From NCBI GenBank assembly GCA_021513695.1, contig CP084166.1, positions 480,001-544,000 on the forward strand: DNA of 64,000 bases. Reading direction: 5' to 3'. The DNA is from Candidatus Heimdallarchaeum aukensis (GTDB taxonomy: Archaea; Asgardarchaeota; Heimdallarchaeia; Heimdallarchaeales; Heimdallarchaeaceae). Position 1 is the first letter of the stretch. Every line of letters starts with the position of its first letter. Below the pieces are notes generated by a model. The model had not been told where the DNA came from. It did no database searches and was given only the letters and a program-made list of their open reading frames with translations. A program made the translations under genes and the position numbers. Of the stretch, positions 504 to 20,999 are shown piece by piece.

Positions 504-541
504 ATTCTTTCTTTCTTTTTCTATCTTTTTAACAATTTTTT

Positions 542-1288: not shown

Positions 1289-1401
1289 TATTTTCGTCGA
1301 AAAACACTTTTATTTAAACTTTTTTTTGTTTTATCAAGATAAAATTATTTAATCATAAAAACAAATTGGGTTTTTAAAAGACCTTTTTTTCTTTAAACTT
1401 A

Positions 1402-2976
1402 ATGGCTCGTATTACTCATATTGGACATGATAAAGGAATTTTGGAAGAAAAAAGACAAACAATACTTTCACTAAGAGAAAAGTCTCTAAAAGGTGGGGGA
1501 GAGGAAAAAATAGCCAGTCAACACAATAAAGGAAAGCTTACTGCGAGAGAGAGAATAGAATTATTGGTTGACGAAAATTCTTTTTGCGAAATAGATCAAA
1601 TAAGAAAATCTCAACATTCTGAATTAGAAATGGAAAAAATAGAAGGAGACGGTGTAGTAACAGGTTATGCAACTATTAATGGTAGACGAGTCTTTATTTA
1701 TAGTCAAGATTTTACCGTTTTGGGAGGAAGTTTAGGAAAAACTCACGCAAAAAAAATTTGTAAAGTTATGGATCTTGCTCTTCAGAGTGGGTGTCCTATA
1801 ATAGGGTTACTTGACTCTGGAGGAGCAAGAATTCAAGAAGGAATAGATTCTCTAGCTGGTTATGGTGAAATATTTTATAGAAATGTAATGAGTTCAGGGG
1901 TAATTCCCCAAGTTTCTATTATTTTGGGTCCTTGTGCTGGAGGAGCGGTCTATTCTCCTGCCCTAACTGATTTTATTATTATGAATCAAATTAATTCATT
2001 TATGTTTGTTACTGGCCCTCAAGTTGTTAAGACAGTTACCGGTGAAGATGTTTCATTCTATGATTTAGGAGGAAGTGAAGTACATAGTTCACTTAGCGGA
2101 GTAAGTCATTTAGTAGGAGAAGATGAAGAGGAAACGATAAATTTAGCTAAGAGACTCTTATCTTACCTTCCATCGAACAATTTAGATGACCCTCCACAAG
2201 AAATAGATGATATCGAAGAAAATGATCAAGATATTCTTTCTGATATTATTCCTGAGCAGGAAAATGAACCTTATGATATGAAAAAAGTAGTTGAAACAGT
2301 TTTAGACCAAGACAGTTTCTTTGAATTACAAGAAAATTGGGCAAAAAACATTATTGTTGGTTTCGGAAGATTAGAAGGTTTAACTGTCGGTATTATTGCA
2401 AACCAACCTTTATTTCTTGGAGGAGCTATAGAATATAATGCTGCGGATAAAGCAGCAAGATTTATTCGTTTTTGTGATTCATTTAACATCCCTATAATTA
2501 CTTTTGTTGATGTACCTGGTTTTATGCCAGGATTAAAACAAGAGGAAGAAGGAATAATTCGTCATGGAGCTAAAATGCTTTTTGCTTATTCAGAAGCTAC
2601 TGTCCCAAAACTTGCAGTAATAACAAGAAAAGCTTATGGAGGAGCTTATATTGTTATGAGCTCAAAGCATTTAGGAGCTGATATTAATTTTGCTTGGCCT
2701 ACAGCAGAAATAGCTGTCATGGGGGCAGAGGGAGCTTGTAATATTATTTATAGAAAAGAACTGAAAAAAGCTGAAAATCCAGAACAAGCTTTGCAAGATT
2801 TTGTTGTAAAATACAAAAAACAGTTCAGCAATCCTATTCGAGCAGCTGAGAAAGGATATGTTGACAAAGTTATTTTGCCTGAAGAAACAAGAATTGAACT
2901 TTCTAATGCCTTGAAATTTTTACAAAATAAAAGGATAGATACCCCGAAAAGAAAACACGGGAATATTCCACTTTAA
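1402..2976 (+). CDS. pccB: Acyl-CoA carboxylase carboxyltransferase (beta) subunit, PccB/AccD5/methylmalonyl-CoA decarboxylase-alpha family.
   Basis: 524 aa. The N-terminus MARITHIGHDKGILEEKRQTILSLREKSLKGGGEEKIASQHNKGKLTARERIELLVDENSF is the canonical propionyl-CoA carboxylase beta start. Two crotonase-fold CT halves are present (GGSLGKTHAKKICK..., ...ITFVDVPGFMPG...). Confidence 0.85.
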   Translation: MARITHIGHDKGILEEKRQTILSLREKSLKGGGEEKIASQHNKGKLTARERIELLVDENSFCEIDQIRKSQHSELEMEKIEGDGVVTGYATINGRRVFIYSQDFTVLGGSLGKTHAKKICKVMDLALQSGCPIIGLLDSGGARIQEGIDSLAGYGEIFYRNVMSSGVIPQVSIILGPCAGGAVYSPALTDFIIMNQINSFMFVTGPQVVKTVTGEDVSFYDLGGSEVHSSLSGVSHLVGEDEEETINLAKRLLSYLPSNNLDDPPQEIDDIEENDQDILSDIIPEQENEPYDMKKVVETVLDQDSFFELQENWAKNIIVGFGRLEGLTVGIIANQPLFLGGAIEYNAADKAARFIRFCDSFNIPIITFVDVPGFMPGLKQEEEGIIRHGAKMLFAYSEATVPKLAVITRKAYGGAYIVMSSKHLGADINFAWPTAEIAVMGAEGACNIIYRKELKKAENPEQALQDFVVKYKKQFSNPIRAAEKGYVDKVILPEETRIELSNALKFLQNKRIDTPKRKHGNIPL

Positions 2977-2997
2977 AATTATTAAGAGGAGAATTTT

Positions 2998-5900
2998 ATG
3001 AAAACTCTAAAAGAACTAAAAAATGAACTACAAATTAAATATCCAATTTTTGGATATAATCCTATCGGACTTGCTGATCCCACGTTAGCTATTGAAATCT
3101 CCAAACTTGGAGGAGTGGGATTAATTAACACTATTGGACTTGAACAAGAAGAACTAACTAAGATTCTTGATCAATGCGAACTTAATCTACCCACACAACT
3201 ATGGGGAATAAGGATTAACGATCTTTCTCACATTAAATGGATTAATCATGAACGAAGTATTCCAATCGTTATCCTACCGGAGAAACCTACAAGATTACAA
3301 CTGGATAAACTGCGTAAAATAAGTAAATTTATTGTCGCTGAAGTTTTATTTGTTGAAGAAGCAAAAAGTCATCTTGAATGGTCAGATTTCTTTTTAGTTA
3401 AAGGTATTGAAGCAGGAGGAAAAGTTGGTACAAAAGCTTCTTTTATTCAGATTCAAGAGTTTTATGAAACTGGATGGCCTTTTATCATTCAAGGAGGAAT
3501 GGGTGCTTTTAATATTAGTTCTGCTCTAATAGGAGGAGCAATAGGAGTAGTTTTTGAGGGACAATTATATCAATTTCCTGAATGTCCTCTTTCTGAAGAA
3601 GCGAAAAAGTATCTTGCTTCTTTAGGTGAAAATGATTCTTTCATTATCAATGAAAGTGGTAAAGAAGGTTACAGAATTTCTGGAAAACTAGCTAACAAAG
3701 CAATTAGAGAAATAAAACAACTAGAAGAAGAATCAAGTGAGGAAAAAATACTTGATAGAATTACTGAATTTGAAAAACCTCACGATCAATTTGGTTTTAA
3801 GAGTCAGAACATTAAACACGCATTTTTACCACTAGGTAACGATGTTTTCTTCTCCACATTCTTCAAGAAAAGATTTGGAAATTTAACAAATTTTGTGGAG
3901 CAAGCTCTTAAGATAGCTGATGAACAAATACAGATTGCTCTAAGAAATTGGCCTTTTGCAAAAGGTTCTACTTTATCCAACTTTCTAGGTACAAAATATC
4001 CTATTATTCAAGGCCCTATGGCTAATGTTTCTGATAATGTAGACTTTGCTATTAATGTAGCGAAAAATGGAGCTCTTCCTTTCTTAGCTTTGGGTGGATT
4101 ACTAAAAGAAGAAACTGAGGAGCTTTTTGATAAAGTTAGAGAAAGTGAACTTGTAAAATATTCCTATGGTTGTGGGATTATAGGTTTAGAAGCAGTTAAA
4201 CAAAGGAGAGAAGAGCACCTTTCTTTAATGAGAGATCTTAAACCTCCCTTTGCTTTGATTGCTGCTGGAACAGTTAATTTAGCTAAACAAGTACAAGAAA
4301 TGGGTTTTAAGACTTTATTACACACTCCCGCTCTATCAATGTTTAAAGATTCTATCAAAAATGGAATAGATTTACAAATTTTAGAAGGGAGTGAATGTGG
4401 AGGACATATTGGACTTCTTTCATCTTTTATTTTATGGGAAAGTATTTTGGAATTTTTAGATGAAAATAGAGAACAGATAGAAAAACCTTTGAAAATAGCT
4501 TTTGCAGGAGGGATATCTGACGGCACTAGTTCTGCGATGCTAGCAGTTATGATTGCTAAACATCTAGATATTATAGAATCAGCAATACAGATGGGTACAT
4601 CCTACTTATTTACTGAAGAGATTCTAGAAACAAAGGCTTTAACTGGATTTTATCAAGAACTTCTTCTTAATTCTAACTACACCAGAATTATAGGCTCAAC
4701 AGTAAATACTCGAGCACGAGCTGCTCCTTCACCTTTTGTAGATCAAACAATTAAAAGAGAAAGAGAGAGAATTAGACAAAAAATACCAATAAAAGAAAGA
4801 AAAGAACTTTACGAGAAAGATAATCTAGGAGCTTTAAGAATTGCAGCTAAAGCTGAAAAATGGAATAACGATCATGTTCCTGGTACTGCAACTACACAGT
4901 TTATAAAAATCGATGAAGAGGAACAGAAAAACTTTGGTTGCTTTATGGCTGGAGAAGTAATAGCAAAGAAACGTAGTATTTACAAGATAGATGACCTACA
5001 CTATGATATTTCAGTAATTGGAAAAGAAATCTTAGAAAAGCAATCAACTTCTATTGCTGATTATTTACTTTCAAAAGAAAAACTAGAAGCTTATGTTTCT
5101 AAAGAACAAAGTCCTCTAGTTATAGATAGTACTAATAAAATTGCTATAGTAGGAATAGGTAGTTTCTTCCCTGATGCTCCAAACACAGAAAAATTCTGGG
5201 AAAATATTGTTAACAAACATTATGCTGTAACTGAAGTACCTATTGAAAGATGGGATCCTAAATATTATTATGACGAAGATCGAACCGCTCCAGACAAGAC
5301 TTATACCAAAATTGGAGCGTTTGTAAAAGAATTTAAATTTAAACCTATTCAATTCAAGATTCCTCCTAAAGTAGCTGAAAAGATGGATGAAGTTCAGAAA
5401 TGGTCATTAATTGCTGCAAAAGAAGCTTTAGAAGATGCTGGAATACCCACAGATGGCAAGAAACGCCTACCTATAGGAGTAATTGTAGGCAATGCTTTAG
5501 GTGGAGAAAATCAGAGAATTACTAACAGGAGATTACACTATCCAGAAATTGAAGAACAACTAAAAATTTTATTAAGCTCAAAATTGTCTGATGAGGAAGT
5601 AGAAAAGTTTGTTTCTTCTTTCAAGAAAGAATATCTCAGTAAATACGCAGAGATTACAGAGGATACTATGCCTGGAGAATTATCTAATGTTGTTGCGGGA
5701 AGAATAGCCAATATATTCAATTTATCTGGTAAATCAATGACAACAGATGCTGCATGTGCTTCTTCTCTTGCTGCTCTGGACATTGCGGTAAAAAGTTTGT
5801 TGAATAACGATTTTGATACTATTCTTGTTGGCGGAGCAGATAGATCTATGGATGTTTCTTCTTATGTTAAATTCAGTAAGATCGGTGCTCTTTCTGCAAC

Positions 5901-7518
5901 TGGTTCTCGACCTTTTGATTCCAAGGCAGACGGTTTTGTAATGGGAGAAGGATGTGGTTTTCTTGTCTTGAAGAAATTGAAAAAAGCTATTGAAGACAAT
6001 GACAAAATTTATGCCATAATTGATTCTGTTGGTTCTTCCTCTGATGGTAAAGGAAAAGGAATTACTGCTCCTAATCCTTTAGGACAAAAAGAAGCTATTG
6101 AAAGAGCTCTTGAACAAGCTAAAGTTTCTCCTTCTGAGATAGATTTAATTGAAGCACATGGAACTTCCACCATAGTAGGAGATAAAACAGAAGTTCAAGT
6201 TTTAAATGAGATTTTCACAGAAAAACAAAAAGAAAGAAAAAGGAAAATAGCTCTTGGTTCAATTAAAAGCCAAATTGGTCATTTAAAGAGCGCAGCAGGT
6301 ATAGCTTCTGTTATAAAAGTAGCTTTAGCTCTTGACAAGAAAATTCTTCCACCAACGATAAATGTTCAAGAACTTAATCCTGCGATTGATTGGAATAATT
6401 CTAATCTTTTTGTTAATCTTGATGCTCAACCATGGGAAAAGGTTGATAACTCTATCAGAAGAGCAGGAGTTTCTGCTTTTGGTTTTGGAGGAACAAATTA
6501 TCATACAATCTTGGAAGAATATATTCCAGAAGCACAGTACATAGAAAAAGAAAAGCAACCAATAGTTGAACTAAAAGAACAAAAAGAAGAAGTTTGCTTC
6601 CTTTATACTGGACAAGGAAGTCAATATTTAGGCATGATAAAGGAACTTTATGATAATTATCCAACTGTTAGAAAAACAATAGATGAAGCTTCAGTTATTG
6701 CTAAAGAGAGTTTAAATGCTGATTTGCGTGAAATAATTTTTGGTTCACCTCAACTTTCCAAAGTTGAAAATGAGGAAAGATTAAGACAAACAGAATACAC
6801 TCAACCTTCTCTCTTTGTAGTCGAAGTTGCTTTAACTAGATTATTGAAAGAAAAAGGAATTGAGCCTACAAGAGTAGCTGGACATAGTTTAGGAGAATAT
6901 ACTGCTTTAGTTGCTGCGGGAGTGTTCTCTTTTGAAGATGGATTAAAAGCTGTAATAGAAAGAGGAAAAGCGATGGCAAAAGCTTCTAAAAGTATCCCTG
7001 GAGCAATGGCAGCTATTCTTACATCTCAAGAAAAAGTTAAGGAAATTATAGAAAAGGTAAATGAAGGTTATATAACAGTAGCCAATTATAACTCATTAAA
7101 CCAAACAGTGATTTCGGGAGAAGAAAAAGCTGTAAACAAAGCTATAGAACTTTTCTCTGCAAGAAAAATAAAAGCAATAAAATTAAATGTTTCAACAGCT
7201 TTTCATTCTATTATTGTTAAAGATGCAGAAATAGAAATGGAGAGAGTGCTTAACAGCCTGACTTACAATAAACCTTCAATTCCTGTCTATTCAAATGTAA
7301 CGGGAAGTTTGTACCCTGACAAACCCTCTAAAATTAAAGAACTTCTAATTAATCAGCTCTGTAATTCTGTTCAATGGGTTAAGATTTCAGAAATGGTCAT
7401 TAATTGCTGCAAAAGAAGCTTTAGAAGATGCTGGAATACCCACAGATGGCAAGAAACGCCTACCTATAGGAGTAATTGTAGGCAATGCTTTAGGTGGAGA
7501 AAATCAGAGAATTACTAA
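2998..7518 (+). CDS. PKS/FAS-like megasynthase, 5' segment: FMN-dependent enoyl reductase (nitronate monooxygenase/FabK/PfaD-like) - ketosynthase (KS) - acyltransferase (AT). The last ~45 codons are out of frame because of the 1993-bp tandem duplication.
   Basis: ER: YPIIQGPMANVSD...ALPFLALGG...GSECGGHIG (about 3990-4700), preceded by a degenerate NPD-like half. KS (about 5140-6520): IAIVGIGSFFPDAPNTEKFWENI, active-site TDAACASSLAAL, EAHGTSTIVGDKTE, GSIKSQIGHLKSAAG. AT (6590 onward): GQGSQ, GHSLGEYTA, TAFHS (malonyl-type). The frame breaks at 7385/7386 and the tail VINCCKRSF... is nonsense. Confidence 0.8.
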   Translation: MKTLKELKNELQIKYPIFGYNPIGLADPTLAIEISKLGGVGLINTIGLEQEELTKILDQCELNLPTQLWGIRINDLSHIKWINHERSIPIVILPEKPTRLQLDKLRKISKFIVAEVLFVEEAKSHLEWSDFFLVKGIEAGGKVGTKASFIQIQEFYETGWPFIIQGGMGAFNISSALIGGAIGVVFEGQLYQFPECPLSEEAKKYLASLGENDSFIINESGKEGYRISGKLANKAIREIKQLEEESSEEKILDRITEFEKPHDQFGFKSQNIKHAFLPLGNDVFFSTFFKKRFGNLTNFVEQALKIADEQIQIALRNWPFAKGSTLSNFLGTKYPIIQGPMANVSDNVDFAINVAKNGALPFLALGGLLKEETEELFDKVRESELVKYSYGCGIIGLEAVKQRREEHLSLMRDLKPPFALIAAGTVNLAKQVQEMGFKTLLHTPALSMFKDSIKNGIDLQILEGSECGGHIGLLSSFILWESILEFLDENREQIEKPLKIAFAGGISDGTSSAMLAVMIAKHLDIIESAIQMGTSYLFTEEILETKALTGFYQELLLNSNYTRIIGSTVNTRARAAPSPFVDQTIKRERERIRQKIPIKERKELYEKDNLGALRIAAKAEKWNNDHVPGTATTQFIKIDEEEQKNFGCFMAGEVIAKKRSIYKIDDLHYDISVIGKEILEKQSTSIADYLLSKEKLEAYVSKEQSPLVIDSTNKIAIVGIGSFFPDAPNTEKFWENIVNKHYAVTEVPIERWDPKYYYDEDRTAPDKTYTKIGAFVKEFKFKPIQFKIPPKVAEKMDEVQKWSLIAAKEALEDAGIPTDGKKRLPIGVIVGNALGGENQRITNRRLHYPEIEEQLKILLSSKLSDEEVEKFVSSFKKEYLSKYAEITEDTMPGELSNVVAGRIANIFNLSGKSMTTDAACASSLAALDIAVKSLLNNDFDTILVGGADRSMDVSSYVKFSKIGALSATGSRPFDSKADGFVMGEGCGFLVLKKLKKAIEDNDKIYAIIDSVGSSSDGKGKGITAPNPLGQKEAIERALEQAKVSPSEIDLIEAHGTSTIVGDKTEVQVLNEIFTEKQKERKRKIALGSIKSQIGHLKSAAGIASVIKVALALDKKILPPTINVQELNPAIDWNNSNLFVNLDAQPWEKVDNSIRRAGVSAFGFGGTNYHTILEEYIPEAQYIEKEKQPIVELKEQKEEVCFLYTGQGSQYLGMIKELYDNYPTVRKTIDEASVIAKESLNADLREIIFGSPQLSKVENEERLRQTEYTQPSLFVVEVALTRLLKEKGIEPTRVAGHSLGEYTALVAAGVFSFEDGLKAVIERGKAMAKASKSIPGAMAAILTSQEKVKEIIEKVNEGYITVANYNSLNQTVISGEEKAVNKAIELFSARKIKAIKLNVSTAFHSIIVKDAEIEMERVLNSLTYNKPSIPVYSNVTGSLYPDKPSKIKELLINQLCNSVQWVKISEMVINCCKRSFRRCWNTHRWQETPTYRSNCRQCFRWRKSENY

Positions 7519-9378
7519 CAGGAGATTACACTATCCAGAAATTGAAGAACAACTAAAAATTTTATTAAGCTCAAAATTGTCTGATGAGGAAGTAGAAAAG
7601 TTTGTTTCTTCTTTCAAGAAAGAATATCTCAGTAAATACGCAGAGATTACAGAGGATACTATGCCTGGAGAATTATCTAATGTTGTTGCGGGAAGAATAG
7701 CCAATATATTCAATTTATCTGGTAAATCAATGACAACAGATGCTGCATGTGCTTCTTCTCTTGCTGCTCTGGACATTGCGGTAAAAAGTTTGTTGAATAA
7801 CGATTTTGATACTATTCTTGTTGGCGGAGCAGATAGATCTATGGATGTTTCTTCTTATGTTAAATTCAGTAAGATCGGTGCTCTTTCTGCAACTGGTTCT
7901 CGACCTTTTGATTCCAAGGCAGACGGTTTTGTAATGGGAGAAGGATGTGGTTTTCTTGTCTTGAAGAAATTGAAAAAAGCTATTGAAGACAATGACAAAA
8001 TTTATGCCATAATTGATTCTGTTGGTTCTTCCTCTGATGGTAAAGGAAAAGGAATTACTGCTCCTAATCCTTTAGGACAAAAAGAAGCTATTGAAAGAGC
8101 TCTTGAACAAGCTAAAGTTTCTCCTTCTGAGATAGATTTAATTGAAGCACATGGAACTTCCACCATAGTAGGAGATAAAACAGAAGTTCAAGTTTTAAAT
8201 GAGATTTTCACAGAAAAACAAAAAGAAAGAAAAAGGAAAATAGCTCTTGGTTCAATTAAAAGCCAAATTGGTCATTTAAAGAGCGCAGCAGGTATAGCTT
8301 CTGTTATAAAAGTAGCTTTAGCTCTTGACAAGAAAATTCTTCCACCAACGATAAATGTTCAAGAACTTAATCCTGCGATTGATTGGAATAATTCTAATCT
8401 TTTTGTTAATCTTGATGCTCAACCATGGGAAAAGGTTGATAACTCTATCAGAAGAGCAGGAGTTTCTGCTTTTGGTTTTGGAGGAACAAATTATCATACA
8501 ATCTTGGAAGAATATATTCCAGAAGCACAGTACATAGAAAAAGAAAAGCAACCAATAGTTGAACTAAAAGAACAAAAAGAAGAAGTTTGCTTCCTTTATA
8601 CTGGACAAGGAAGTCAATATTTAGGCATGATAAAGGAACTTTATGATAATTATCCAACTGTTAGAAAAACAATAGATGAAGCTTCAGTTATTGCTAAAGA
8701 GAGTTTAAATGCTGATTTGCGTGAAATAATTTTTGGTTCACCTCAACTTTCCAAAGTTGAAAATGAGGAAAGATTAAGACAAACAGAATACACTCAACCT
8801 TCTCTCTTTGTAGTCGAAGTTGCTTTAACTAGATTATTGAAAGAAAAAGGAATTGAGCCTACAAGAGTAGCTGGACATAGTTTAGGAGAATATACTGCTT
8901 TAGTTGCTGCGGGAGTGTTCTCTTTTGAAGATGGATTAAAAGCTGTAATAGAAAGAGGAAAAGCGATGGCAAAAGCTTCTAAAAGTATCCCTGGAGCAAT
9001 GGCAGCTATTCTTACATCTCAAGAAAAAGTTAAGGAAATTATAGAAAAGGTAAATGAAGGTTATATAACAGTAGCCAATTATAACTCATTAAACCAAACA
9101 GTGATTTCGGGAGAAGAAAAAGCTGTAAACAAAGCTATAGAACTTTTCTCTGCAAGAAAAATAAAAGCAATAAAATTAAATGTTTCAACAGCTTTTCATT
9201 CTATTATTGTTAAAGATGCAGAAATAGAAATGGAGAGAGTGCTTAACAGCCTGACTTACAATAAACCTTCAATTCCTGTCTATTCAAATGTAACGGGAAG
9301 TTTGTACCCTGACAAACCCTCTAAAATTAAAGAACTTCTAATTAATCAGCTCTGTAATTCTGTTCAATGGGTTAAGAT
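5393..9378 (+). repeat. Perfect direct tandem duplication, 2 x 1993 bp (5393-7385 and 7386-9378), running from mid-KS to the end of AT inside the megasynthase gene.
   Basis: Direct sequence comparison gives a constant offset of 1993. Identical antisense ORFs at 5538-5783 = 7531-7776 and 6325-6558 = 8318-8551 confirm it. Unit length is 3x664+1, so the reading frame shifts at the junction. Confidence 0.9.
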
Positions 9379-12300: not shown

Positions 12301-15300
12301 TGCTGAAATTCTAAGCTCTTTGGGAAGTAAGTTCGACCTTGAATTTGATGAGATGTCTGATCTTTCAGGAATTAGAAATACAGAAGATATAGTGGAAGCA
12401 GTGATAAAAATTAAGCAATCCATTGAACAAACTCAAACCCCAACCAAAACAGAAGAACAATTAGCTGTAAGTCAAAAACTTAAAGTTGAACAAGAAGAAG
12501 AAATAGTTATTCGTAGTGTAGAACCTGTTCTAAAGCCTTTAGAACAAAGTGAAGTAAATAAATTTAATCTAGAAGATAAAAATCTCTTACTTCTAGATAT
12601 TCATTCAAAAGAAGCCAAATATATCTATTCTTTACTTGAACAGAAGAAGGCTAAAATTGAGCTTGTTAGGATTAATTCTGAAGACTCAGAAAAACCAAAT
12701 AATAATAAATATGACTTAATCTTAATCTTATTACCAGATGATCACAATTCTGCAAATGATACTAAATACTTTGAGCAACTATTTCTTACCCTACAACAGC
12801 TAGAGTACAATCATAATACTAAGATTGTTTCTTACTCTGTTGAAGACTATTTAGACTCTAAAAAGGAGATAATTCCTTTAAGTGGAGGTATATCCGCTTT
12901 TGTTAAGACTATTGGTCAAGAATTTGAACTAGACATTAAACATGTTTATTCCACAAAACCTGAAGAACTAGTTACAGAGTTGGAAAATTGGGATAAAAAC
13001 CTTGAAGTTATTTATTCAGAGGGTAAAAGATACATTTTCAGTCACATGAGAAAAATACCTCTAGAACAATTACAAAAAGAAAAAATCGAACTTACAGAAG
13101 ATGATCTTATACTTGTTACTGGAGGAGCAAGAGGTATCACTTATGAATGTATTAAAGAACTTACAAAAGATGCTAAACCTTCAATTGCTATCGTTGGTAG
13201 AACTAAACTTCCAGAAGATGTATCTGAATTGCTCTTCTTAACCGACAAAGAAATAGCAAACAAAAAAGAAGAGATAAAAGAAAAACTTGCTCAAGAAAAT
13301 GAAAAAGTTACTCCAGTGATGATAGAAAAAGCTTGGAAACGCTTCCTAAACACTGTTGAAATTGCAAAGAATATTCTCTATTTAATTGAAAATGAAGTGA
13401 ATGCTAACTATTATTCTGCAGATGTTTCAGATGAAGAACAAATGAAAAGTGTTTTGAGTCAAATTGAAGAAGATTTCGAAAAAACTATAACTCTTATTGT
13501 ACATGGTGCGGGAATAGAAGAATCTAAAGCTTTCAAGAAAAAGAAACTAGAAATGGCAAAGAAAATAGTACAAGTAAAGATTTCAGGGTTATACAATATT
13601 CTAAATAATATAGATCAATCTAATTTGAAGAAGATCATCTGCTTTAGCTCAATTGCAGGAAGATTTGGTAATAGAGGACAAGTGGATTATGCTTTTGCAA
13701 ATGGTTATCTAGCTAGAACATGCTGGAAGTTTAAACAACAAGGAATTAACGCTCTAGCTATAGATTGGTCAGCTTGGGCAGATATAGGCATGGCAACACA
13801 AGGTTCTATTCTTAAAGTGCTGAAAGCTGCAGGAATAACTCCCATTCCATTAAAAGAAGGAATAAGAATATTTTCTGAACTAACCAATTACAATGTAGAA
13901 CAAAGTGAATTAATAGTTGCAGGAAAACTTGGACTTCTTCTAAAAGAAATAGAAGATAAAAAAACAAGTGGTCAACACGATACTAGTATGAACACAGAGA
14001 GTTATCCAATGATTGATGAAATTAGAAAAACAGACAACGGTTTTATTGCTTCAAAGACACTAAAATATGATTATGACTTATACATGAGAGATCATCAAAT
14101 CCAAGGATTGCCAATATTTCCTGCAGTAATGGGATTAGAATTCTTCGCTGAGATGTTCAAACTTACAACAGAAAAAGATGTTTACGCAATAGCAGAAGTA
14201 TCGTTTAGAGAAGCAATTAAACAGTTTAAGAACAAAAATGTTGAACTTCAATGTTCATTTGATACAGAAAGAGGGGATATGGAAATTAAAACAATCTTTA
14301 CAGACATTAAAGGAGTTCAAAAAGAAAAGAAACACTTCTTCTGTAAGTCTGTAAAAGATACGACAGAAAAAAGCTATAAGAAAAAGAAGATAGAAAAAAG
14401 AGTGATACCACTACTTTCCAAAGAAGTGATCTATCAGCTTTTCTTCCATGGTCCAAGTTTTCAAGTTTTGGAGAATTTGAATGAGATAAAAGGAAATATC
14501 ATCTCCACTAATGTCCAGATTCCAAATCTGCCTTTATTCAAAGATGAAGAATTGAAAACTATTCTCGTTCCTCGAGCAATAGAAGCGGCTTTACAGACAG
14601 CAGGGTTGTATGACATGTTCATTAACAATGTTGTTTCATTGCCATCAAAAATAAAAAACTTGGAAGTATACAAGGAAACAGAAGCTGTTTTTGCTGAAGC
14701 TGAATTCCTAAAGATAGAGGAAAGACATAGTTTCTTCAATGTAAAGATTTACGATGCTGAAGGAGAAGTAATAATGGTTTTAGAACAACTAGGAATGATA
14801 CATACTTCTATGCCCATAAATTTGGACGAAAAAGGAAAGAAACTCTTCCAGATGATTAAAGGATATCATGAAATAAGAACAAAAGTAGATGACGAAAAAG
14901 TAGCTGTTTTACCTATTCACAAAGTAGTAGAAGAATACAGAAAAAATAGACAAGAACTAGAAAATAAACTAGTTGCTTACGAAAAAACAAGATTTACTAA
15001 AATATCCAACGAAAAAAGAAAAATGGAATATTTAGCGGGAGTAATCCTTGCTAAAGAACTTTTTTCCAAATATGAAAACATTACCGATTTCAGAAGTATA
15101 GAAATAAAAAAGAAGAGTAAGGGGCAACCTTACTTTTTCAACAGACAACTAAAAGAAGAAACGGATTGGTATGTTTCTATTAGTCATTCAAATGATTTCG
15201 CTGTAGTCTCTATTGAGAAACAACCAGTAGGAATAGACATAGAAAAAGTAGAAGAAAGAAGTAAAAGTTTCTATGGCGAAGTTTTTTCAGATTATGAATT

Positions 15301-15538
15301 ATCAAAAATTGCTGATGACCATACTTTAGGAACAAAATATTGGACTGCTAAAGAGTCATTAACTAAAGCATTAGGAGAAGGATTACATATTAAACTAAAA
15401 GAAATTGAGTTTGGTTACAACGATGGCAAATTTGATCTAAAAAAATATCCTTCTTCTCTAAAACAAGATCAATTGCAGACTTCTATTGAATCTATTGAAG
15501 CAGCAGGTTATGTTGTTTCTAAATGTGTAATAAAATAA
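7577..15538 (+). CDS. PKS/FAS-like megasynthase, 3' segment: duplicated partial KS - AT - second KS - three tandem ACPs - ketoreductase - dehydratase - C-terminal Sfp/EntD-type 4'-phosphopantetheinyl transferase domain.
   Basis: TTG start inside the repeated KS. AT copy at 8583-9440. KS2 (about 9780-11350): IGVTGVGIGLPG, NAACASTTQAIG, SHETYTPARGG, GHSMGAGIEEA...IPP. ACPs: LEEDLGIDSIKAAEIM (about 11620), LEEDLGIDTVKQAEIF (about 11935), LEEDLGVDSIKIAEIL (about 12265). KR: LVTGGARGITYE (about 13110) and YAFANGY. DH hot-dog: HQIQGLPIFPAVMGLEF (about 14090). PPTase: ...VSISHSNDFAVVSIEKQPVGIDIEKVEE...WTAKESLTKALGEG (15000-15538). Confidence 0.8.
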   Translation: MSDEEVEKFVSSFKKEYLSKYAEITEDTMPGELSNVVAGRIANIFNLSGKSMTTDAACASSLAALDIAVKSLLNNDFDTILVGGADRSMDVSSYVKFSKIGALSATGSRPFDSKADGFVMGEGCGFLVLKKLKKAIEDNDKIYAIIDSVGSSSDGKGKGITAPNPLGQKEAIERALEQAKVSPSEIDLIEAHGTSTIVGDKTEVQVLNEIFTEKQKERKRKIALGSIKSQIGHLKSAAGIASVIKVALALDKKILPPTINVQELNPAIDWNNSNLFVNLDAQPWEKVDNSIRRAGVSAFGFGGTNYHTILEEYIPEAQYIEKEKQPIVELKEQKEEVCFLYTGQGSQYLGMIKELYDNYPTVRKTIDEASVIAKESLNADLREIIFGSPQLSKVENEERLRQTEYTQPSLFVVEVALTRLLKEKGIEPTRVAGHSLGEYTALVAAGVFSFEDGLKAVIERGKAMAKASKSIPGAMAAILTSQEKVKEIIEKVNEGYITVANYNSLNQTVISGEEKAVNKAIELFSARKIKAIKLNVSTAFHSIIVKDAEIEMERVLNSLTYNKPSIPVYSNVTGSLYPDKPSKIKELLINQLCNSVQWVKIIEEMYNDGGRIFVEVGPKKALYNFVKDILGEKEDIQTFLTLNPKVGELKSFNDTVSKLKMSKRRETETPVQTKEKIVYKESALDVLLKNKEINNLVSKPYFREYLKENSNLLSSIMKQGYEQFSKYRESLVIAEKAKYWDINFDLIGVTGVGIGLPGKNRAVFSDDNFDLILNGTNLIESVEDTIKQETLDKNIVRLVKSPDGNATFEAIDDISKVIQLAAQIGELNFKELGIEDKLAKALDSTFIMAIGAGLEALKDAGIPLVESKIVTSTGKTLKGSWTLPESLQHDTGIVFASAFPGYDNLVDEVTRHLVAKFENKTNKEIEEIFEQLINVVSNPEAKEEISNWFLEKQSLLEEKEEKYTFSREFLYKVLSMGHSQFAQFIKAKGPNTQVNAACASTTQAIGVAEDWIRTGRCKRVIVIAGDNAASKNLLPWIGGGFLAAGGVTTKADVKEAALPFGKERHGLIIGSASAGLVIESRESYEERGVKPIVDLVGTYMANSAYHGSRLDVNHISEELESFIEKVERRYNIDRKNIAKEGIFVSHETYTPARGGSAEAEIQSLLNVFKEDAYSMTIINTKGFTGHSMGAGIEEAVAIKAIEKGKIPPIANIEKLDPAFSKFKFSKGEKRRFSFALRLAAGFGSQLAFALFRLNTYDNRFSAQYNEWLKSLGGGKEELFVEGRVLKLKTDNKKKQADLVKKPAVQKTVEKKIKTVTKAPTDILQVVKDIISEKTGYETEVIEENMHLEEDLGIDSIKAAEIMNDISDKWSIPQEKLFEQFDIDTPGKIAKFISENTSAPEETSYSVETTVAKEEVKRAETSSVSTGDILVRIKEVIGKHTGYDIQDLDENYDLEEDLGIDTVKQAEIFGDLRDLFGLDLDETYALADYRTIADIAQAISTEKPVEKVKQVETEESGEIRTAQQPTIISEAESSISREEVTKEVLSIISEITGYDTEDIEIEMDLEEDLGVDSIKIAEILSSLGSKFDLEFDEMSDLSGIRNTEDIVEAVIKIKQSIEQTQTPTKTEEQLAVSQKLKVEQEEEIVIRSVEPVLKPLEQSEVNKFNLEDKNLLLLDIHSKEAKYIYSLLEQKKAKIELVRINSEDSEKPNNNKYDLILILLPDDHNSANDTKYFEQLFLTLQQLEYNHNTKIVSYSVEDYLDSKKEIIPLSGGISAFVKTIGQEFELDIKHVYSTKPEELVTELENWDKNLEVIYSEGKRYIFSHMRKIPLEQLQKEKIELTEDDLILVTGGARGITYECIKELTKDAKPSIAIVGRTKLPEDVSELLFLTDKEIANKKEEIKEKLAQENEKVTPVMIEKAWKRFLNTVEIAKNILYLIENEVNANYYSADVSDEEQMKSVLSQIEEDFEKTITLIVHGAGIEESKAFKKKKLEMAKKIVQVKISGLYNILNNIDQSNLKKIICFSSIAGRFGNRGQVDYAFANGYLARTCWKFKQQGINALAIDWSAWADIGMATQGSILKVLKAAGITPIPLKEGIRIFSELTNYNVEQSELIVAGKLGLLLKEIEDKKTSGQHDTSMNTESYPMIDEIRKTDNGFIASKTLKYDYDLYMRDHQIQGLPIFPAVMGLEFFAEMFKLTTEKDVYAIAEVSFREAIKQFKNKNVELQCSFDTERGDMEIKTIFTDIKGVQKEKKHFFCKSVKDTTEKSYKKKKIEKRVIPLLSKEVIYQLFFHGPSFQVLENLNEIKGNIISTNVQIPNLPLFKDEELKTILVPRAIEAALQTAGLYDMFINNVVSLPSKIKNLEVYKETEAVFAEAEFLKIEERHSFFNVKIYDAEGEVIMVLEQLGMIHTSMPINLDEKGKKLFQMIKGYHEIRTKVDDEKVAVLPIHKVVEEYRKNRQELENKLVAYEKTRFTKISNEKRKMEYLAGVILAKELFSKYENITDFRSIEIKKKSKGQPYFFNRQLKEETDWYVSISHSNDFAVVSIEKQPVGIDIEKVEERSKSFYGEVFSDYELSKIADDHTLGTKYWTAKESLTKALGEGLHIKLKEIEFGYNDGKFDLKKYPSSLKQDQLQTSIESIEAAGYVVSKCVIK

Positions 15539-15572
15539 TATGGAGATTAAAAAAAAAAAAAGGTGATAATAT

Positions 15573-16334
15573 ATGTTACAACTGAATTATGATATAAAAT
15601 TTAGAAAGGATTTCATTCATGGAATTCTTTATTTGCCGGATGAAGAGGGGCAGTTCCCTTTAGTTATAAGATTGAACGGTTTTCCGGGCAATTCTCCAGA
15701 AAAAGAAGAACAAAGATTAGCAGATATTATCACCCAGAATAATATGGCTTTTTATGCCTTTGACTATGTAGGAGTAAGAAAAAGTACAGGGACATTTAAT
15801 TATTATACGAGTTTGGAAAACATAAATACTGTTATAACAGATTTATCACATCATCCTCGAATTAATCCTGCAAAGATTGCTCTTCTTGGAGAAAGCTTCG
15901 GAGGAGCAATGGCAATAAGCCAAGGAGTAAGAGACCAAAGAATAAAATGTATTGTTTTAAGGTCTCCTGTATATGATACTGAAGTTATTCCTCAAATACC
16001 GTCTTTTAATACTTTAGTTAAAATATGGTCCAGAAACAATCAAATACGTTTCCCTAAAGGAGACATAAGTGAATTATACTACAAACAAACTAATCTTTAC
16101 AATCCTAAAAAAATAGCAAATTTAGTTAATTGCCCCGTAAAATTGATTGCAGGAGATAAAGATGAGTTGTTGGAAGTTAAGGGTTTTAGAGAACTTTACA
16201 AATGTTTACCACGGAAACTAAGAAAAGGAATTGATATCATTAAAGGAGCAGATCATAACTTTACTAAACAAAAACAGTTTATAGAATTAAAGAGTGAACT
16301 TTCCAGCTTTTTGACTTGTTGCCTTTTAGGGTAA
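15573..16334 (+). CDS. Alpha/beta-fold hydrolase (dienelactone hydrolase/esterase-like); candidate thioesterase for the megasynthase.
   Basis: 253 aa. GxSxG nucleophile elbow LLGESFGGAMA, a later Asp (AGDKDE) and His (GADHNF). The start sits 35 nt after the megasynthase stop. Confidence 0.55.
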   Translation: MLQLNYDIKFRKDFIHGILYLPDEEGQFPLVIRLNGFPGNSPEKEEQRLADIITQNNMAFYAFDYVGVRKSTGTFNYYTSLENINTVITDLSHHPRINPAKIALLGESFGGAMAISQGVRDQRIKCIVLRSPVYDTEVIPQIPSFNTLVKIWSRNNQIRFPKGDISELYYKQTNLYNPKKIANLVNCPVKLIAGDKDELLEVKGFRELYKCLPRKLRKGIDIIKGADHNFTKQKQFIELKSELSSFLTCCLLG

Positions 16335-16346
16335 ATAACTTATGGA

Positions 16347-16838
16347 GTGCAAAAGATGAAGAAAAAAATAATCTACAACAATGAAGAATACATAATAGAA
16401 GCTAAAGGAGAAGACGAGATAGTAGTGAATAATAAGACTTTCAAAGTTAACTTAAAAGAGAAAAACAAGAATTTTTTCAATATAGAAATTCAAGGAAAGA
16501 AGTTTATTATAGAAGTAAGAGAAGGAGAATTCTATTTAGACGGAGAGAAAATAGAAAAATTATCAATTAGCCCCTATTTTCCACAATTAAAGAAACAAAA
16601 ACAAATGATTAACTCTCAAAAAGAAGTAGTAAAAGCACCTATACCAGGAACTATAACTCAAATACTAGTTAAAGAAGGAGATACAGTAAAAAAAGACCAA
16701 GAATTATTTATCCTTGAAGCGATGAAAATGAGAAATAGAATCTTAACAACCATTGACAAAGGTGTAGTAAAAAAAATCTACGTTAGCGAGAATGAAACTG
16801 TATCTCAAGATCAAAAACTAGCTATAATTGAAAATTAA
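16347..16838 (+). CDS. accB: Biotin carboxyl carrier protein (BCCP, biotinyl/lipoyl domain).
   Basis: C-terminal biotinyl domain with EAMKM (the biotinylated Lys in FILEAMKMRNRI). 163 aa. Confidence 0.75.
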   Translation: MQKMKKKIIYNNEEYIIEAKGEDEIVVNNKTFKVNLKEKNKNFFNIEIQGKKFIIEVREGEFYLDGEKIEKLSISPYFPQLKKQKQMINSQKEVVKAPIPGTITQILVKEGDTVKKDQELFILEAMKMRNRILTTIDKGVVKKIYVSENETVSQDQKLAIIEN

Positions 16839-17073
16839 ATAAAAAAATAACAAAACAAATTTATTGCAAAAATAATTTAAAATTCGCACAAATATTTGGA
16901 TACTTCTTCTTTTTTAAATTCAAATTTTATCAAAAACTTGAAAAGAATGCTAAATAGTCTATTTTTTAAATAAATAGGAAACAAAAAAAGTTTAGACTAA
17001 GTGGTTAGTTTTTGAAGTATAAATGAGGAGAAATAGGAACTGTATAATTTAAAGAAGAATAAAAAAAATAGGA

Positions 17074-17661
17074 CTAATCAACCATAAGTTTGGGAAATTT
17101 TGAAAGTTCCATTAATTTCATGAATTTTTTTCCTTTCTTAAAAATAGTATCTATACATTCAATTATTATATCCAAAAGCTCTTCTACTTTTTCTTTTTTT
17201 ACAGGTTTTAGTCCATGAGCAAGTATTGATTCATTTCTCTCTTTTAAAAGGTCTTTCATTTTGTTGGATGAAGAAAACATTTTCCCAAGATCATCATTCA
17301 AATCGTCTAAAACTAGATAACAATCATATAATCCCAACTTTACTTTTGAACCATTACTTTTTCTTTCTTTGAAATAACTTATACGTTGAGAAGAAACTCC
17401 TAACTTTTCTAATTGCTCTAAGGATATGTCATGGGGAGGTAAATTGTAGGCACTCTTTAATCTATACTGTGCCATAAGTTCTACAGCTCTGTAGAGCCTA
17501 GCCATTGCATCATCAAACTTTTCTTCTTTTAATCGACGTTTTGCGTTATTTAATAAATCTGCAAGAAAATAAAGGTCTTTCTCTATTTTTTTATCACTTT
17601 TATGTAACAAGTCGCACAAAAATTCTTTATTAAAACTATATTCTTTGCCAAGCTGTTTCAT
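17074..17661 (-). pseudogene. Duplicated 3' fragment of csx1 (HEPN half only) created by the 2.7-kb tandem duplication.
   Basis: Identical to the C-terminal 195 aa of the 409-aa Csx1 at 19770-20999. Lacks the CARF domain. The upstream frame is replaced by the repeat junction. Confidence 0.55.
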
Positions 17662-17679
17662 TTTATCAAAAGCTTCTTT

Positions 17680-18234
17680 ATGGTTAAATCTACTAAAATA
17701 TCCAACGAAAAAAGAAAAATGGAATATTTAGCGGGAGTAATCCTTGCTAAAGAACTTTTTTCCAAATATGAAAACATTACCGATTTCAGAAGTATAGAAA
17801 TAAAAAAGAAGAGTAAGGGGCAACCTTACTTTTTCAACAGACAACTAAAAGAAGAAACGGATTGGTATGTTTCTATTAGTCATTCAAATGATTTCGCTGT
17901 AGTCTCTATTGAGAAACAACCAGTAGGAATAGACATAGAAAAAGTAGAAGAAAGAAGTAAAAGTTTCTATGGCGAAGTTTTTTCAGATTATGAATTATCA
18001 AAAATTGCTGATGACCATACTTTAGGAACAAAATATTGGACTGCTAAAGAGTCATTAACTAAAGCATTAGGAGAAGGATTACATATTAAACTAAAAGAAA
18101 TTGAGTTTGGTTACAACGATGGCAAATTTGATCTAAAAAAATATCCTTCTTCTCTAAAACAAGATCAATTGCAGACTTCTATTGAATCTATTGAAGCAGC
18201 AGGTTATGTTGTTTCTAAATGTGTAATAAAATAA
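17680..18234 (+). pseudogene. Duplicated stand-alone copy of the megasynthase C-terminal PPTase domain.
   Basis: Identical to the last 184 aa of ORF 7577-15538 (GIDIEKVEE, WTAKESLTKALGEG). Begins at the repeat junction with a TTG/GTG-type start. Expression is uncertain. Confidence 0.45.
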
Positions 18235-18269
18235 TATGGAGATTAAAAATAAAAAAAAGGTGATAATAT

Positions 18270-19031
18270 ATGTTACAACTGAATTATGATATAAAATTTA
18301 GAAAGGATTTCATTCATGGAATTCTTTATTTGCCGGATGAAGAGGGGCAGTTCCCTTTAGTTATAAGATTGAACGGTTTTCCGGGCAATTCTCCAGAAAA
18401 AGAAGAACAAAGATTAGCAGATATTATCACCCAGAATAATATGGCTTTTTATGCCTTTGACTATGTAGGAGTAAGAAAAAGTACAGGGACATTTAATTAT
18501 TATACGAGTTTGGAAAACATAAATACTGTTATAACAGATTTATCACATCATCCTCGAATTAATCCTGCAAAGATTGCTCTTCTTGGAGAAAGCTTCGGAG
18601 GAGCAATGGCAATAAGCCAAGGAGTAAGAGACCAAAGAATAAAATGTATTGTTTTAAGGTCTCCTGTATATGATACTGAAGTTATTCCTCAAATACCGTC
18701 TTTTAATACTTTAGTTAAAATATGGTCCAGAAACAATCAAATACGTTTCCCTAAAGGAGACATAAGTGAATTATACTACAAACAAACTAATCTTTACAAT
18801 CCTAAAAAAATAGCAAATTTAGTTAATTGCCCCGTAAAATTGATTGCAGGAGATAAAGATGAGTTGTTGGAAGTTAAGGGTTTTAGAGAACTTTACAAAT
18901 GTTTACCACGGAAACTAAGAAAAGGAATTGATATCATTAAAGGAGCAGATCATAACTTTACTAAACAAAAACAGTTTATAGAATTAAAGAGTGAACTTTC
19001 CAGCTTTTTGACTTGTTGCCTTTTAGGGTAA
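18270..19031 (+). CDS. Alpha/beta hydrolase, second identical copy.
   Basis: 100% identical protein to 15573-16334. Confidence 0.55.
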   Translation: MLQLNYDIKFRKDFIHGILYLPDEEGQFPLVIRLNGFPGNSPEKEEQRLADIITQNNMAFYAFDYVGVRKSTGTFNYYTSLENINTVITDLSHHPRINPAKIALLGESFGGAMAISQGVRDQRIKCIVLRSPVYDTEVIPQIPSFNTLVKIWSRNNQIRFPKGDISELYYKQTNLYNPKKIANLVNCPVKLIAGDKDELLEVKGFRELYKCLPRKLRKGIDIIKGADHNFTKQKQFIELKSELSSFLTCCLLG

Positions 19032-19043
19032 ATAACTTATGGA

Positions 19044-19517
19044 GTGCAAAAGATGAAGAAAAAAATAATCTACAACAATGAAGAATACATAATAGAAGCT
19101 AAAGGAGAAGACGAGATAGTAGTGAATAATAAGACTTTCAAAGTTAACTTAAAAGAGAAAAACAAGAATTTTTTCAATATAGAAATTCAAGGAAAGAAGT
19201 TTATTATAGAAGTAAGAGAAGGAGAATTCTATTTAGACGGAGAGAAAATAGAAAAATTATCAATTAGCCCCTATTTTCCACAATTAAAGAAACAAAAACA
19301 AATGATTAACTCTCAAAAAGAAGTAGTAAAAGCACCTATACCAGGAACTATAACTCAAATACTAGTTAAAGAAGGAGATACAGTAAAAAAAGACCAAGAA
19401 TTATTTATCCTTGAAGCGATGAAAATGAGAAATAGAATCTTAACAACCATTGACAAAGGTGTAGTAAAAAAATCTACGTTAGCGAGAATGAAACTGTATC
19501 TCAAGATCAAAAACTAG
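19044..19517 (+). pseudogene. BCCP second copy, with the C-terminus altered by a 1-nt homopolymer-length difference.
   Basis: Identical to 16347-16838 up to ...DKGVVKK. An A7 tract replaces the A8 tract, so the protein ends ...STLARMKLYLKIKN, replacing the last 18 residues of the biotinyl domain fold. Confidence 0.5.
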
Positions 19518-19769
19518 CTATAATTGAAAATTAAATAAAAAAATAACAAAACAAATTTATTGCAAAAATAATTTAAAATTCGCACAAATATTTGGATACT
19601 TCTTCTTTTTTAAATTCAAATTTTATCAAAAACTTGAAAAGAATGCTAAATAGTCTATTTTTTAAATAAATAGGAAACAAAAAAAGTTTAGACTAAGTGG
19701 TTAGTTTTTGAAGTATAAATGAGGAGAAATAGGAACTGTATAATTTAAAGAAGAATAAAAAAAATAGGA

Positions 19770-20999
19770 CTAATCAACCATAAGTTTGGGAAATTTTGAA
19801 AGTTCCATTAATTTCATGAATTTTTTTCCTTTCTTAAAAATAGTATCTATACATTCAATTATTATATCCAAAAGCTCTTCTACTTTTTCTTTTTTTACAG
19901 GTTTTAGTCCATGAGCAAGTATTGATTCATTTCTCTCTTTTAAAAGGTCTTTCATTTTGTTGGATGAAGAAAACATTTTCCCAAGATCATCATTCAAATC
20001 GTCTAAAACTAGATAACAATCATATAATCCCAACTTTACTTTTGAACCATTACTTTTTCTTTCTTTGAAATAACTTATACGTTGAGAAGAAACTCCTAAC
20101 TTTTCTAATTGCTCTAAGGATATGTCATGGGGAGGTAAATTGTAGGCACTCTTTAATCTATACTGTGCCATAAGTTCTACAGCTCTGTAGAGCCTAGCCA
20201 TTGCATCATCAAACTTTTCTTCTTTTAATCGACGTTTTGCGTTATTTAATAAATCTGCAAGAAAATAAAGGTCTTTCTCTATTTTTTTATCACTTTTATG
20301 TAACAAGTCGCACAAAAATTCTTTATTAAAACTATATTCTTTGCCAAGCTGTTTCATTTTATCAAAAGCTTCTTTATGGTTAAATCTATCCCATAAACTA
20401 AAAGAATCAATTAAATTGTAATAGTATTCTTTTGTTTTGTCTCCGTTTAATAATACTATTTCATCTAAATAATTTCGTGCAGCATTATATCGATAATTAT
20501 TGAAAGATTCTTTCATTCTCCTTAACAATAATTTGTCATATACTGAATAAAGACTTTGCTCGACAATTCTTTCAGTACCTGAAAGAACAACACCATCTTT
20601 TCTTCTGCCTGAAATCAAAGTTAGTTTTTTGTGAAAAAGTACTGCAGCGATAGCTGCACTCATAGTCATTGTTTTTGTTCCAGAAGTATAGTCAATTATT
20701 ATTTCAGAATTGGAATACTTGTATATCTCATTCTGAATTAGTTGAAAACAACTATCAAAATCATCAATAGAAGTAAATTGAATAAATTCGTAAGAAGACA
20801 ATTCCTTGTTATACTGTGATTTATGTTGCCTTTCTATCTCCTTTATTGTTTTACGACTGTCTTCAGAACCAAAAAAAACAATATGATCAGGTTTATAGTG
20901 TTCAATACAAACTAGCAGTCCATGAGCTAAACTCTCAATTTTCTTGTCAACGTCCTCCCCTATTGCAGTTCCTACAGTCATAAAAAGAATACGTTTCAT
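19770..20999 (-). CDS. csx1: Csx1/Csm6-family CARF-HEPN ribonuclease (type III CRISPR ancillary effector).
   Basis: N-terminal CARF: MKRILFMTVGTAIG... and IIDYTSGTKTMTMSA (the D-x-T-x-G-T-K-x-M motif). C-terminal HEPN R-x6-H: RNESILAH. 409 aa. Confidence 0.7.
   Translation of the reverse strand: MKRILFMTVGTAIGEDVDKKIESLAHGLLVCIEHYKPDHIVFFGSEDSRKTIKEIERQHKSQYNKELSSYEFIQFTSIDDFDSCFQLIQNEIYKYSNSEIIIDYTSGTKTMTMSAAIAAVLFHKKLTLISGRRKDGVVLSGTERIVEQSLYSVYDKLLLRRMKESFNNYRYNAARNYLDEIVLLNGDKTKEYYYNLIDSFSLWDRFNHKEAFDKMKQLGKEYSFNKEFLCDLLHKSDKKIEKDLYFLADLLNNAKRRLKEEKFDDAMARLYRAVELMAQYRLKSAYNLPPHDISLEQLEKLGVSSQRISYFKERKSNGSKVKLGLYDCYLVLDDLNDDLGKMFSSSNKMKDLLKERNESILAHGLKPVKKEKVEELLDIIIECIDTIFKKGKKFMKLMELSKFPKLMVD

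What the first reader, a model, noticed from the sequence alone, without database searches (positions are those of the whole stretch)
5393..9378. Perfect 1993-bp tandem duplication inside the megasynthase (mid-KS to end-AT) that breaks the reading frame
The two copies are 100% identical by eye and directly abut. The unit length is 3n+1, so the first ORF terminates 45 nonsense codons after the junction (7518) and the second ORF restarts at an internal TTG (7577). Either a very recent segmental duplication has just pseudogenised, or split, the megasynthase, or this is an assembly artefact (repeat expansion or read-through of a circular or concatemeric template). An in-frame version would simply give KS-AT-KS-AT module doubling, which is how PKS modules evolve. 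The exact-copy, non-triplet nature is therefore informative either way.
Basis: seen in the sequence. Interest (0 to 1): 0.6.

Follow-up and report, generated by a model that had tools for sequence, protein, structure and literature searches.

The report
Probable false duplication in assembly
The exact 1993-base tandem repeat that splits a giant lipid/polyketide synthase gene of an Asgard archaeon is really in the sequence, but a short-read assembly of the same strain and three relatives show one copy and an intact gene, so it is most likely an assembly error and not biology.

Summary
Observation confirmed. Window 5393-7385 and 7386-9378 are 100% identical and abut, and the unit is 3n+1. The gene is split into ORFs 2998-7518 and 7577-15538. 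Deleting one copy restores a 3515-aa ORF, the same length as the ortholog in Ca. Heimdallarchaeum endolithica PR6.

The duplication is probably not real. A k=31 de Bruijn contig from run SRR15988954 is 100% identical to the window. It runs unbroken across both outer boundaries of the unit and lacks all 30 junction 31-mers. The same assembly does break, to the base (k-1 overlaps), at the boundaries of a second tandem duplication 5.6 kb downstream (14995-17692 / 17691-20388). So it does break at a tandem repeat whose junction is in the reads. PR6 and a JGI contig also carry one copy.

The window is probably Ca. H. aukensis (inferred). That genome was built with metaSPAdes, LRScaf scaffolding on MDA/PCR-amplified Nanopore reads, and pilon. 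This route is prone to false duplications.

A real low-frequency variant cannot be excluded without reads. Both unit boundaries lie inside the KS and AT domains, so even an in-frame copy would not double a module. Interest is low. The second duplication and the Asgard PfaA-like lipid cluster are the more interesting by-products.

The parts
5393..7385 (+). Copy 1 of the 1993-bp unit (megasynthase residues about 799-1463: KS from about 86 aa into the domain, KS C-terminal domain, linker, and most of AT)
   Evidence: Exact match to 7386-9378. Domain positions.
7386..9378 (+). Copy 2 of the 1993-bp unit, probably spurious. The junction is 7385|7386 with 0 nt of microhomology.
   Evidence: None of the 30 junction-spanning 31-mers is in Logan contig L001, which covers the locus. 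All 60 outer-boundary 31-mers are.
2998..7518 (+). ORF1 (1506 aa): ER (NMO-like) region, KS, C-terminally truncated AT, then 43 frameshifted codons
7577..15538 (+). ORF2 (2653 aa, mechanical TTG start): N-terminally truncated KS, AT, second KS-like domain, 3 ACP, KR, DH, PPTase. Joined to ORF1 with one unit removed, it forms a 3515-aa PfaA-like megasynthase.
   Evidence: The PR6 ortholog is 3515 aa. Its best NCBIfam match is TIGR02813 PfaA at 969 bits, against a cutoff of 1010.
14995..17692 (+). Copy A of a second tandem duplication (period 2696). It holds the PPTase end of the megasynthase, the hydrolase, BCCP and a truncated Csm6 gene. It serves here as a positive control.
   Evidence: It equals Logan contig L004 (2699 nt) apart from one 1-bp indel.
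17691..20388 (+). Copy B of the second tandem duplication. It shares a 2-nt 'TA' overlap with copy A.
   Evidence: Flanking Logan contig L005 starts at 20359, which is 20388-29.

Best explanation
The second copy of the 1993-bp unit is a false tandem duplication introduced when the genome was assembled, scaffolded or gap-closed. In the organism the gene is one intact 3515-aa ORF. It encodes a PfaA-like iterative megasynthase (ER, KS, AT, KS-like, ACPx3, KR, DH, PPTase).

Shown: the same strain's short reads assemble through the locus with one copy and no branch, and relatives have one copy.

Inferred: the window is probably Ca. Heimdallarchaeum aukensis. That genome was made from metaSPAdes contigs scaffolded with LRScaf on MDA- and PCR-amplified Nanopore reads and then polished with pilon. 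One plausible route is a contig join at 7385|7386 where overlapping contig ends were concatenated. Another is a falsely estimated gap of about 2 kb that was filled by extending one flank back over the other. The exact step cannot be identified from the sequence.
For: (1) Logan contig SRR15988954_7381 (13,596 nt) is 100% identical to the window over L001 566-7950 = window 1-7385 and L001 5958-13541 = window 7386-14969. That is one copy, with both outer boundaries in the middle of the contig. All 30+30 outer-boundary 31-mers are present and 0 of 30 junction 31-mers.

(2) Logan contigs come from a k=31 de Bruijn graph (Cuttlefish2 unitigs with Minia3 simplification, every 31-mer occurring once; PMC12424806). 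A junction with normal coverage therefore has to break the contig at the unit boundaries.

(3) Positive control in the same run. At the second duplication, one contig ends at window 15024 (from the contig length of 13,596 nt), the next spans 14995-17692, and the next starts at 20359. These are exact 30-nt (k-1) overlaps at the repeat boundaries.

(4) Removing one copy gives a 3515-aa ORF, the same length as the PR6 ortholog L002 10001-20548.

(5) One copy is present in PR6 (94% identity) and in JGI contig Ga0180301_10005383 (95-96% identity).

(6) The two copies differ at 0 of 1993 positions, although relatives differ by about 5%. The unit is 3n+1 and cuts inside the KS and AT domains.

(7) The published pipeline for the likely source genome uses scaffolding with MDA/PCR-amplified Nanopore reads (PMC8813620).
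Against: No reads could be mapped, so the absence of the junction is inferred from graph topology and not from read counts. Minia3 removes short low-coverage connections, so a junction present in a minority of cells (roughly under a quarter of local coverage) would also leave the contig unbroken. It is inferred, not shown, that SRR15988954 is the library behind this assembly and that the window is Ca. H. aukensis. I cannot name the pipeline step that would copy exactly 1993 bp. LRScaf is said to merge contigs when the gap is negative (PMC6902338). A real tandem duplication next door shows that this locus can duplicate. The lack of indel differences between the copies is uninformative, because the unit has no homopolymer of 7 or more bases.
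Confidence: 0.7

Rival explanations
1. It is a real but subclonal, very recent tandem duplication. A minority of cells in the enrichment carry it. Long reads from those cells were taken into the consensus, while the short-read graph dropped the low-coverage junction.
For: Zero divergence between the copies fits a very young event. The locus carries another tandem duplication that the read graph supports. Minia3-type cleaning removes low-coverage connections (PMC12424806), so the unbroken contig only bounds the frequency of the junction.
Against: A consensus assembly normally reports the major allele. The event destroys a large conserved gene. The junction has no microhomology, unlike the neighbouring duplication. 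The Nanopore libraries were amplified by MDA and PCR, which produces chimeric molecules that mimic this pattern (PMC8813620).
Confidence: 0.2
2. It is a real duplication fixed in the sequenced population, and it has just split or pseudogenised the megasynthase.
For: It is in the deposited sequence, without Ns, and survived polishing.
Against: A contig of the identical strain crosses both boundaries unbroken, although the same assembly breaks at the neighbouring duplication. This rival requires SRR15988954 to sample a different population that is otherwise identical over about 30 kb.
Confidence: 0.05
3. It is an early step of PKS module evolution (KS-AT doubling), which could later be rescued by a compensating frameshift.
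Against: The unit is out of frame (3n+1). Its boundaries lie 86 aa inside KS and about 37 aa before the end of AT, so the fusion would carry a truncated AT joined to a truncated KS. It also needs the duplication to be real, which is unlikely.
Confidence: 0.03

Closest known systems
False (artefactual) tandem duplications in hybrid or scaffolded genome assemblies (unmerged overlapping contig ends, over-filled gaps, chimeric MDA or PCR long reads)
   Same: The copies are 100% identical and directly abut. The breakpoints are arbitrary and have no microhomology. An otherwise conserved gene is broken. An independent read-derived graph gives no support to the junction. Removing one copy restores the gene.
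   Different: The pipeline step responsible is not identified. No gap Ns or other scaffold scars remain in the window.
Genuine recent tandem segmental duplication in prokaryotes (illegitimate recombination or amplification), as shown by the neighbouring 2696-bp duplication at 14995-20388
   Same: Head-to-tail arrangement and near-zero divergence.
   Different: The neighbouring event has a 2-nt (5 of 6) microhomology and breaks the short-read graph exactly at its boundaries. Its copies differ by two 1-bp indels, and it leaves the outer genes intact. The 1993-bp repeat has none of these features and does not break the graph.
PfaA / PUFA-synthase-type iterative type I PKS (TIGR02813)
   Same: The gene being disrupted has KS, AT, tandem ACPs, KR and DH. 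PfaA is its best NCBIfam match (969 bits).
   Different: The score is below the curated cutoff (1010). ER, a second KS-like domain and a PPTase are fused into the same polypeptide. The host is an Asgard archaeon.

Membership tests
Assembly artefact (false tandem duplication) | The copies are identical and abut | tested here: met
   1993/1993 identical, with the junction at 7385|7386
Assembly artefact (false tandem duplication) | The junction is not supported by an independent read-derived assembly of the same strain | tested here: met
   Logan contig L001 crosses both outer boundaries unbroken, and 0 of 30 junction 31-mers are present. The control duplication does break the graph. This is indirect: it rests on graph topology, not read counts.
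Assembly artefact (false tandem duplication) | Summed read depth over the unit equals the flank depth | not testable with these tools
   No reads or k-mer abundances are available.
Assembly artefact (false tandem duplication) | Removing one copy restores the conserved gene structure seen in relatives | tested here: met
   The de-duplicated ORF is 3515 aa and the PR6 ortholog is 3515 aa. PR6 and JGI contig L006 each have one copy.
Genuine tandem duplication | Junction-spanning molecules are present at about genomic coverage | tested here: not met
   The k=31 contig is unbroken through both boundaries in SRR15988954. A low-frequency junction is not excluded.
Genuine tandem duplication | Doubled copy number (depth) of the unit | not testable with these tools
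   No coverage data.
PKS module duplication (KS-AT doubling) | In-frame, with breakpoints in inter-domain or inter-module linkers | tested here: not met
   The unit is 3n+1. The breakpoints are at residue 799 (inside the KS N-terminal domain, 713-997) and residue 1463 (inside AT, 1201-1500).
PfaA-type PUFA synthase (TIGR02813), for the gene itself | Score at or above the curated NCBIfam cutoff | tested here: not met
   969.1 bits against a cutoff of 1010.1 for the PR6 ortholog. It is PfaA-like but not a curated member.
PfaA-type PUFA synthase (TIGR02813), for the gene itself | KS-AT-(ACP)n-KR-DH domain order | tested here: met
   Pfam finds KS, AT, PP-binding, KR and PKS_DH_N, plus extra NMO/ER and ACPS/PPTase domains.

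The most novel reading that the evidence does not exclude
The 1993-bp duplication is a real, just-arisen (subclonal) event. Together with the read-supported 2696-bp duplication 5.6 kb downstream, it would mark a duplication-prone hotspot in the lipid-synthase cluster of an Asgard archaeon. That would catch a megasynthase at the moment of segmental duplication, before selection acts.
Probability: 0.2. Interest if true: 0.35.

Novelty: not a real feature. Interest (0 to 1): 0.1.

Why it matters
The main value is as a correction. If the sequence is taken at face value, the only PfaA-like megasynthase in this Heimdallarchaeum genome would be annotated as a pseudogene or as two genes. That would distort inferences about whether relatives of the eukaryotic ancestor can make bacterial-type fatty acyl chains. 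Here the gene sits with PlsY, a biotin ligase and all three acetyl-CoA carboxylase parts. The evidence points to an intact gene. The case also shows a cheap test for suspected false duplications: check whether a public k-mer-graph assembly of the same run breaks at the repeat boundaries.

Tried and rejected
- Exact-product look-ups of ORF1, ORF2, the dup-2 junction ORF (17680-18234) and the full Csm6 gene found nothing on record. No other assembly could therefore be shown to carry either junction.
- A scan of JGI metagenome contigs for the last 29 nt of the unit found no exact match.
- The full 3515-aa homology search timed out. A 700-aa N-terminal query worked.
- The primers published for Ca. 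H. aukensis are not in the window, so the source genome could not be confirmed that way.
- The run number SRR15988954 does not appear in the paper's supplements.
- I considered using residual homopolymer errors to decide whether the copies came from long or short reads. I dropped this because the unit has no homopolymer of 7 or more bases.
- I considered that the second duplication might also be a concatenation artefact. I rejected this because its copies overlap by 2 nt instead of abutting as whole graph edges, and because three Logan contig ends fit its boundaries to the base.
- The LRScaf paper only says that contigs with a negative gap are merged, so the artefact mechanism stays unresolved.

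Full report
**1. The observation**

The repeat is exactly as described. At offset 1993 all 1993 positions match, against 513-643 (about 26-32%) at neighbouring offsets. The exact match runs 5393-7385 = 7386-9378 and stops at both ends, so the junction has no microhomology (same family). The boundary sequences are ...GATGGATGAAG|TTCAGAAATGG (left)...GGGTTAAGAT|TTCAGAAATGG (junction) and ...GGGTTAAGAT|AATTGAAGAG (right).

The unit is 3n+1. ORF1 (2998-7518, 1506 aa) reads 43 out-of-frame codons after the junction and stops. The next mechanical ORF starts at TTG 7577 and ends at 15538 (2653 aa). Deleting 7386-9378 gives one ORF of 3515 aa.

**2. What the gene is**

Pfam finds the following:
- ORF1: an NMO-type enoyl reductase region, KS, and an AT cut at profile position about 226 of 319.
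- ORF2: a KS lacking its first about 140 profile positions, a full AT, a second KS-like region, PP-binding domains, KR, PKS dehydratase and a C-terminal 4'-phosphopantetheinyl transferase.

The best NCBIfam match of the intact ortholog is PfaA (TIGR02813) at 969 bits, just under the cutoff of 1010.

The unit covers residues about 799-1463. It starts 86 residues inside KS and ends about 37 residues before the end of AT. So even an in-frame copy would fuse a truncated AT to a truncated KS and would not give a clean KS-AT-KS-AT.

The neighbouring genes are PlsY (3-503), a biotin ligase (542-1288, minus strand), a carboxyltransferase (1402-2976), an alpha/beta hydrolase, BCCP and biotin carboxylase (35862-37442, minus strand).

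**3. Whose genome it is**

The only hit in the GTDB species representatives is Ca. Heimdallarchaeum endolithica PR6 (CP084167.1), at about 94% nucleotide identity. The paper describing PR6 also describes a second species, Ca. H. aukensis, with 88% ANI genome-wide. That genome was assembled with metaSPAdes, scaffolded by two rounds of LRScaf with Nanopore reads from MDA-amplified (and in one run also PCR-amplified) DNA, and polished with pilon (PMC8813620). I infer that the window is this genome or a very close relative. I could not prove it: the published primers are not in the window.

**4. Is the duplication real?**

An exact-product look-up of the carboxyltransferase returned a Logan contig from run SRR15988954 (13,596 nt). 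It is 100% identical to the window over L001 566-7950 = window 1-7385 and L001 5958-13541 = window 7386-14969. That is one copy of the unit, with a downstream ORF called as 3344 residues still open at the contig end.

Logan contigs come from a k=31 de Bruijn graph (Cuttlefish2 unitigs, Minia3 simplification), in which every 31-mer occurs once by construction (PMC12424806). The single copy is therefore not in itself informative. What matters is that the contig does not break at 5393 or at 7385/9379. A tandem junction adds a second way into the start of the unit and a second way out of its end, which must end a contig unless the junction path was removed for low coverage. All 60 outer-boundary 31-mers are in the contig and none of the 30 junction 31-mers.

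**5. An internal positive control**

It spans 14995-17692 and 17691-20388, with period 2696. The copies share a 2-nt 'TA' overlap (5 of 6 with ATTTA/ATCTA) and differ by two 1-bp indels in A-runs.

In the same Logan run:
- the first contig ends at window 15024 (from its length);
- a 2699-nt contig spans exactly 14995-17692;
- a 14,151-nt contig, 100% identical, starts at 20359.

These are 30-nt (k-1) overlaps exactly at the repeat boundaries. So this assembly does break where a tandem junction is present in the reads, and it did not break at the 1993-bp unit. The far end of the 14-kb contig (34509) abuts a fragmented DDE transposase. That fits a break at a multi-copy element, though its copy number was not checked.

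**6. Relatives**

PR6 has one copy and an intact 3515-aa ORF (L002 10001-20548), the same length as the de-duplicated window ORF. A JGI contig (Ga0180301_10005383, 95-96% identity) also has one copy. The two copies in the window differ at 0 of 1993 positions, while these relatives differ by about 5%.

**7. Verdict**

The most likely reading (about 0.7) is a false duplication created during hybrid assembly, scaffolding or gap closure. The real gene is intact.

I cannot identify the step responsible. Concatenated overlapping contig ends, or an over-filled false gap at 7385|7386, would give exactly this signature: identical copies, an arbitrary breakpoint and no microhomology. Chimeric MDA/PCR Nanopore reads could have supplied the false link. 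The LRScaf paper says only that contigs with a negative gap are merged (PMC6902338).

The main rival (about 0.2) is a real but minority variant whose junction was cleaned from the short-read graph. A fixed real duplication (about 0.05) would require SRR15988954 to represent a different population that is otherwise identical over about 30 kb.

The absence of indel differences between the copies is not informative, because the unit has no homopolymer of 7 or more bases, whereas the second unit has twelve.

**8. Comparison with known things, and novelty**

As an object this is a known kind of assembly error, so I score it 'not a real feature' with low interest. It fails the tests for a PKS module duplication: it is out of frame and its breakpoints are inside domains.

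The by-products are more interesting:
- a read-supported 2.7-kb tandem duplication that spans the left edge of a 19-kb insertion (16884-35857: type III-B Cmr genes, Csm6, a STAND-TPR NTPase and a transposase remnant) absent from PR6 and from an ENA contig;
- the PfaA-like megasynthase itself, whose N-terminal region has homologs at about 50% identity in Thor-, Loki/Prometh- and Heimdallarchaeota and next at about 31% in Gemmataceae.

**9. What is missing**

Read mapping or k-mer counting at the junction, depth over the unit, and PCR would settle the matter. None can be done with these tools.

Noticed in passing
window 14995-20388: A second tandem duplication, nearly perfect (period 2696, 2-nt 'TA' overlap at the junction). 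It covers the PPTase end of the megasynthase, the hydrolase, BCCP and part of a Csm6 gene. Unlike the 1993-bp repeat, it is supported by short-read graph topology: Logan contig ends fall at 15024, 14995-17692 and 20359.
   Followed up: yes
window 15553 and 19465: The two copies of the second duplication each differ from the short-read contig by one 1-bp indel in an A-rich run. A T is missing in copy A (intergenic). Copy B has A7 instead of A8, which frameshifts the second BCCP copy (157 aa instead of 163). These could be real slippage mutations or leftover polishing errors.
   Followed up: partly
window 17680-18234 and 17074-17661: The junction of the second duplication creates a chimeric 184-aa ORF that is essentially a stand-alone PPTase domain (AASDHPPT_N plus ACPS). 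It also leaves a truncated 195-aa copy of the Csm6 gene, whose full 409-aa copy is at 19770-20999.
   Followed up: partly
window 16884-35857: About 19 kb is absent from Ca. H. endolithica PR6 and from ENA contig L003. It sits between BCCP and biotin carboxylase. It holds a type III-B Cmr cassette (Cas10/Cmr2, Cmr3, Cmr5, RAMPs), Csm6, a STAND-TPR NTPase (30911-33541), a P_proprotein-domain protein and a fragmented DDE transposase (34532-35229). No tRNA gene was found anywhere in the window.
   Followed up: partly
window 3-16838 plus 35862-37442: An Asgard archaeon carries a complete bacterial-style acyl-lipid gene set: PlsY, a biotin ligase, carboxyltransferase, BCCP, biotin carboxylase and a 3515-aa PfaA-like megasynthase with fused ER and PPTase. 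Homologs of the N-terminal ER region are about 50% identical in Thor-, Loki/Prometh- and Heimdallarchaeota, and next about 31% in Gemmataceae. My one full-text search (Asgard, polyketide synthase, archaea, fatty acid) turned up no paper on such a synthase.
   Followed up: partly
window 41537-44947: A 1136-aa ORF whose only Pfam match is a bacterial Ig (Big_7) domain. It was not examined further.
   Followed up: no
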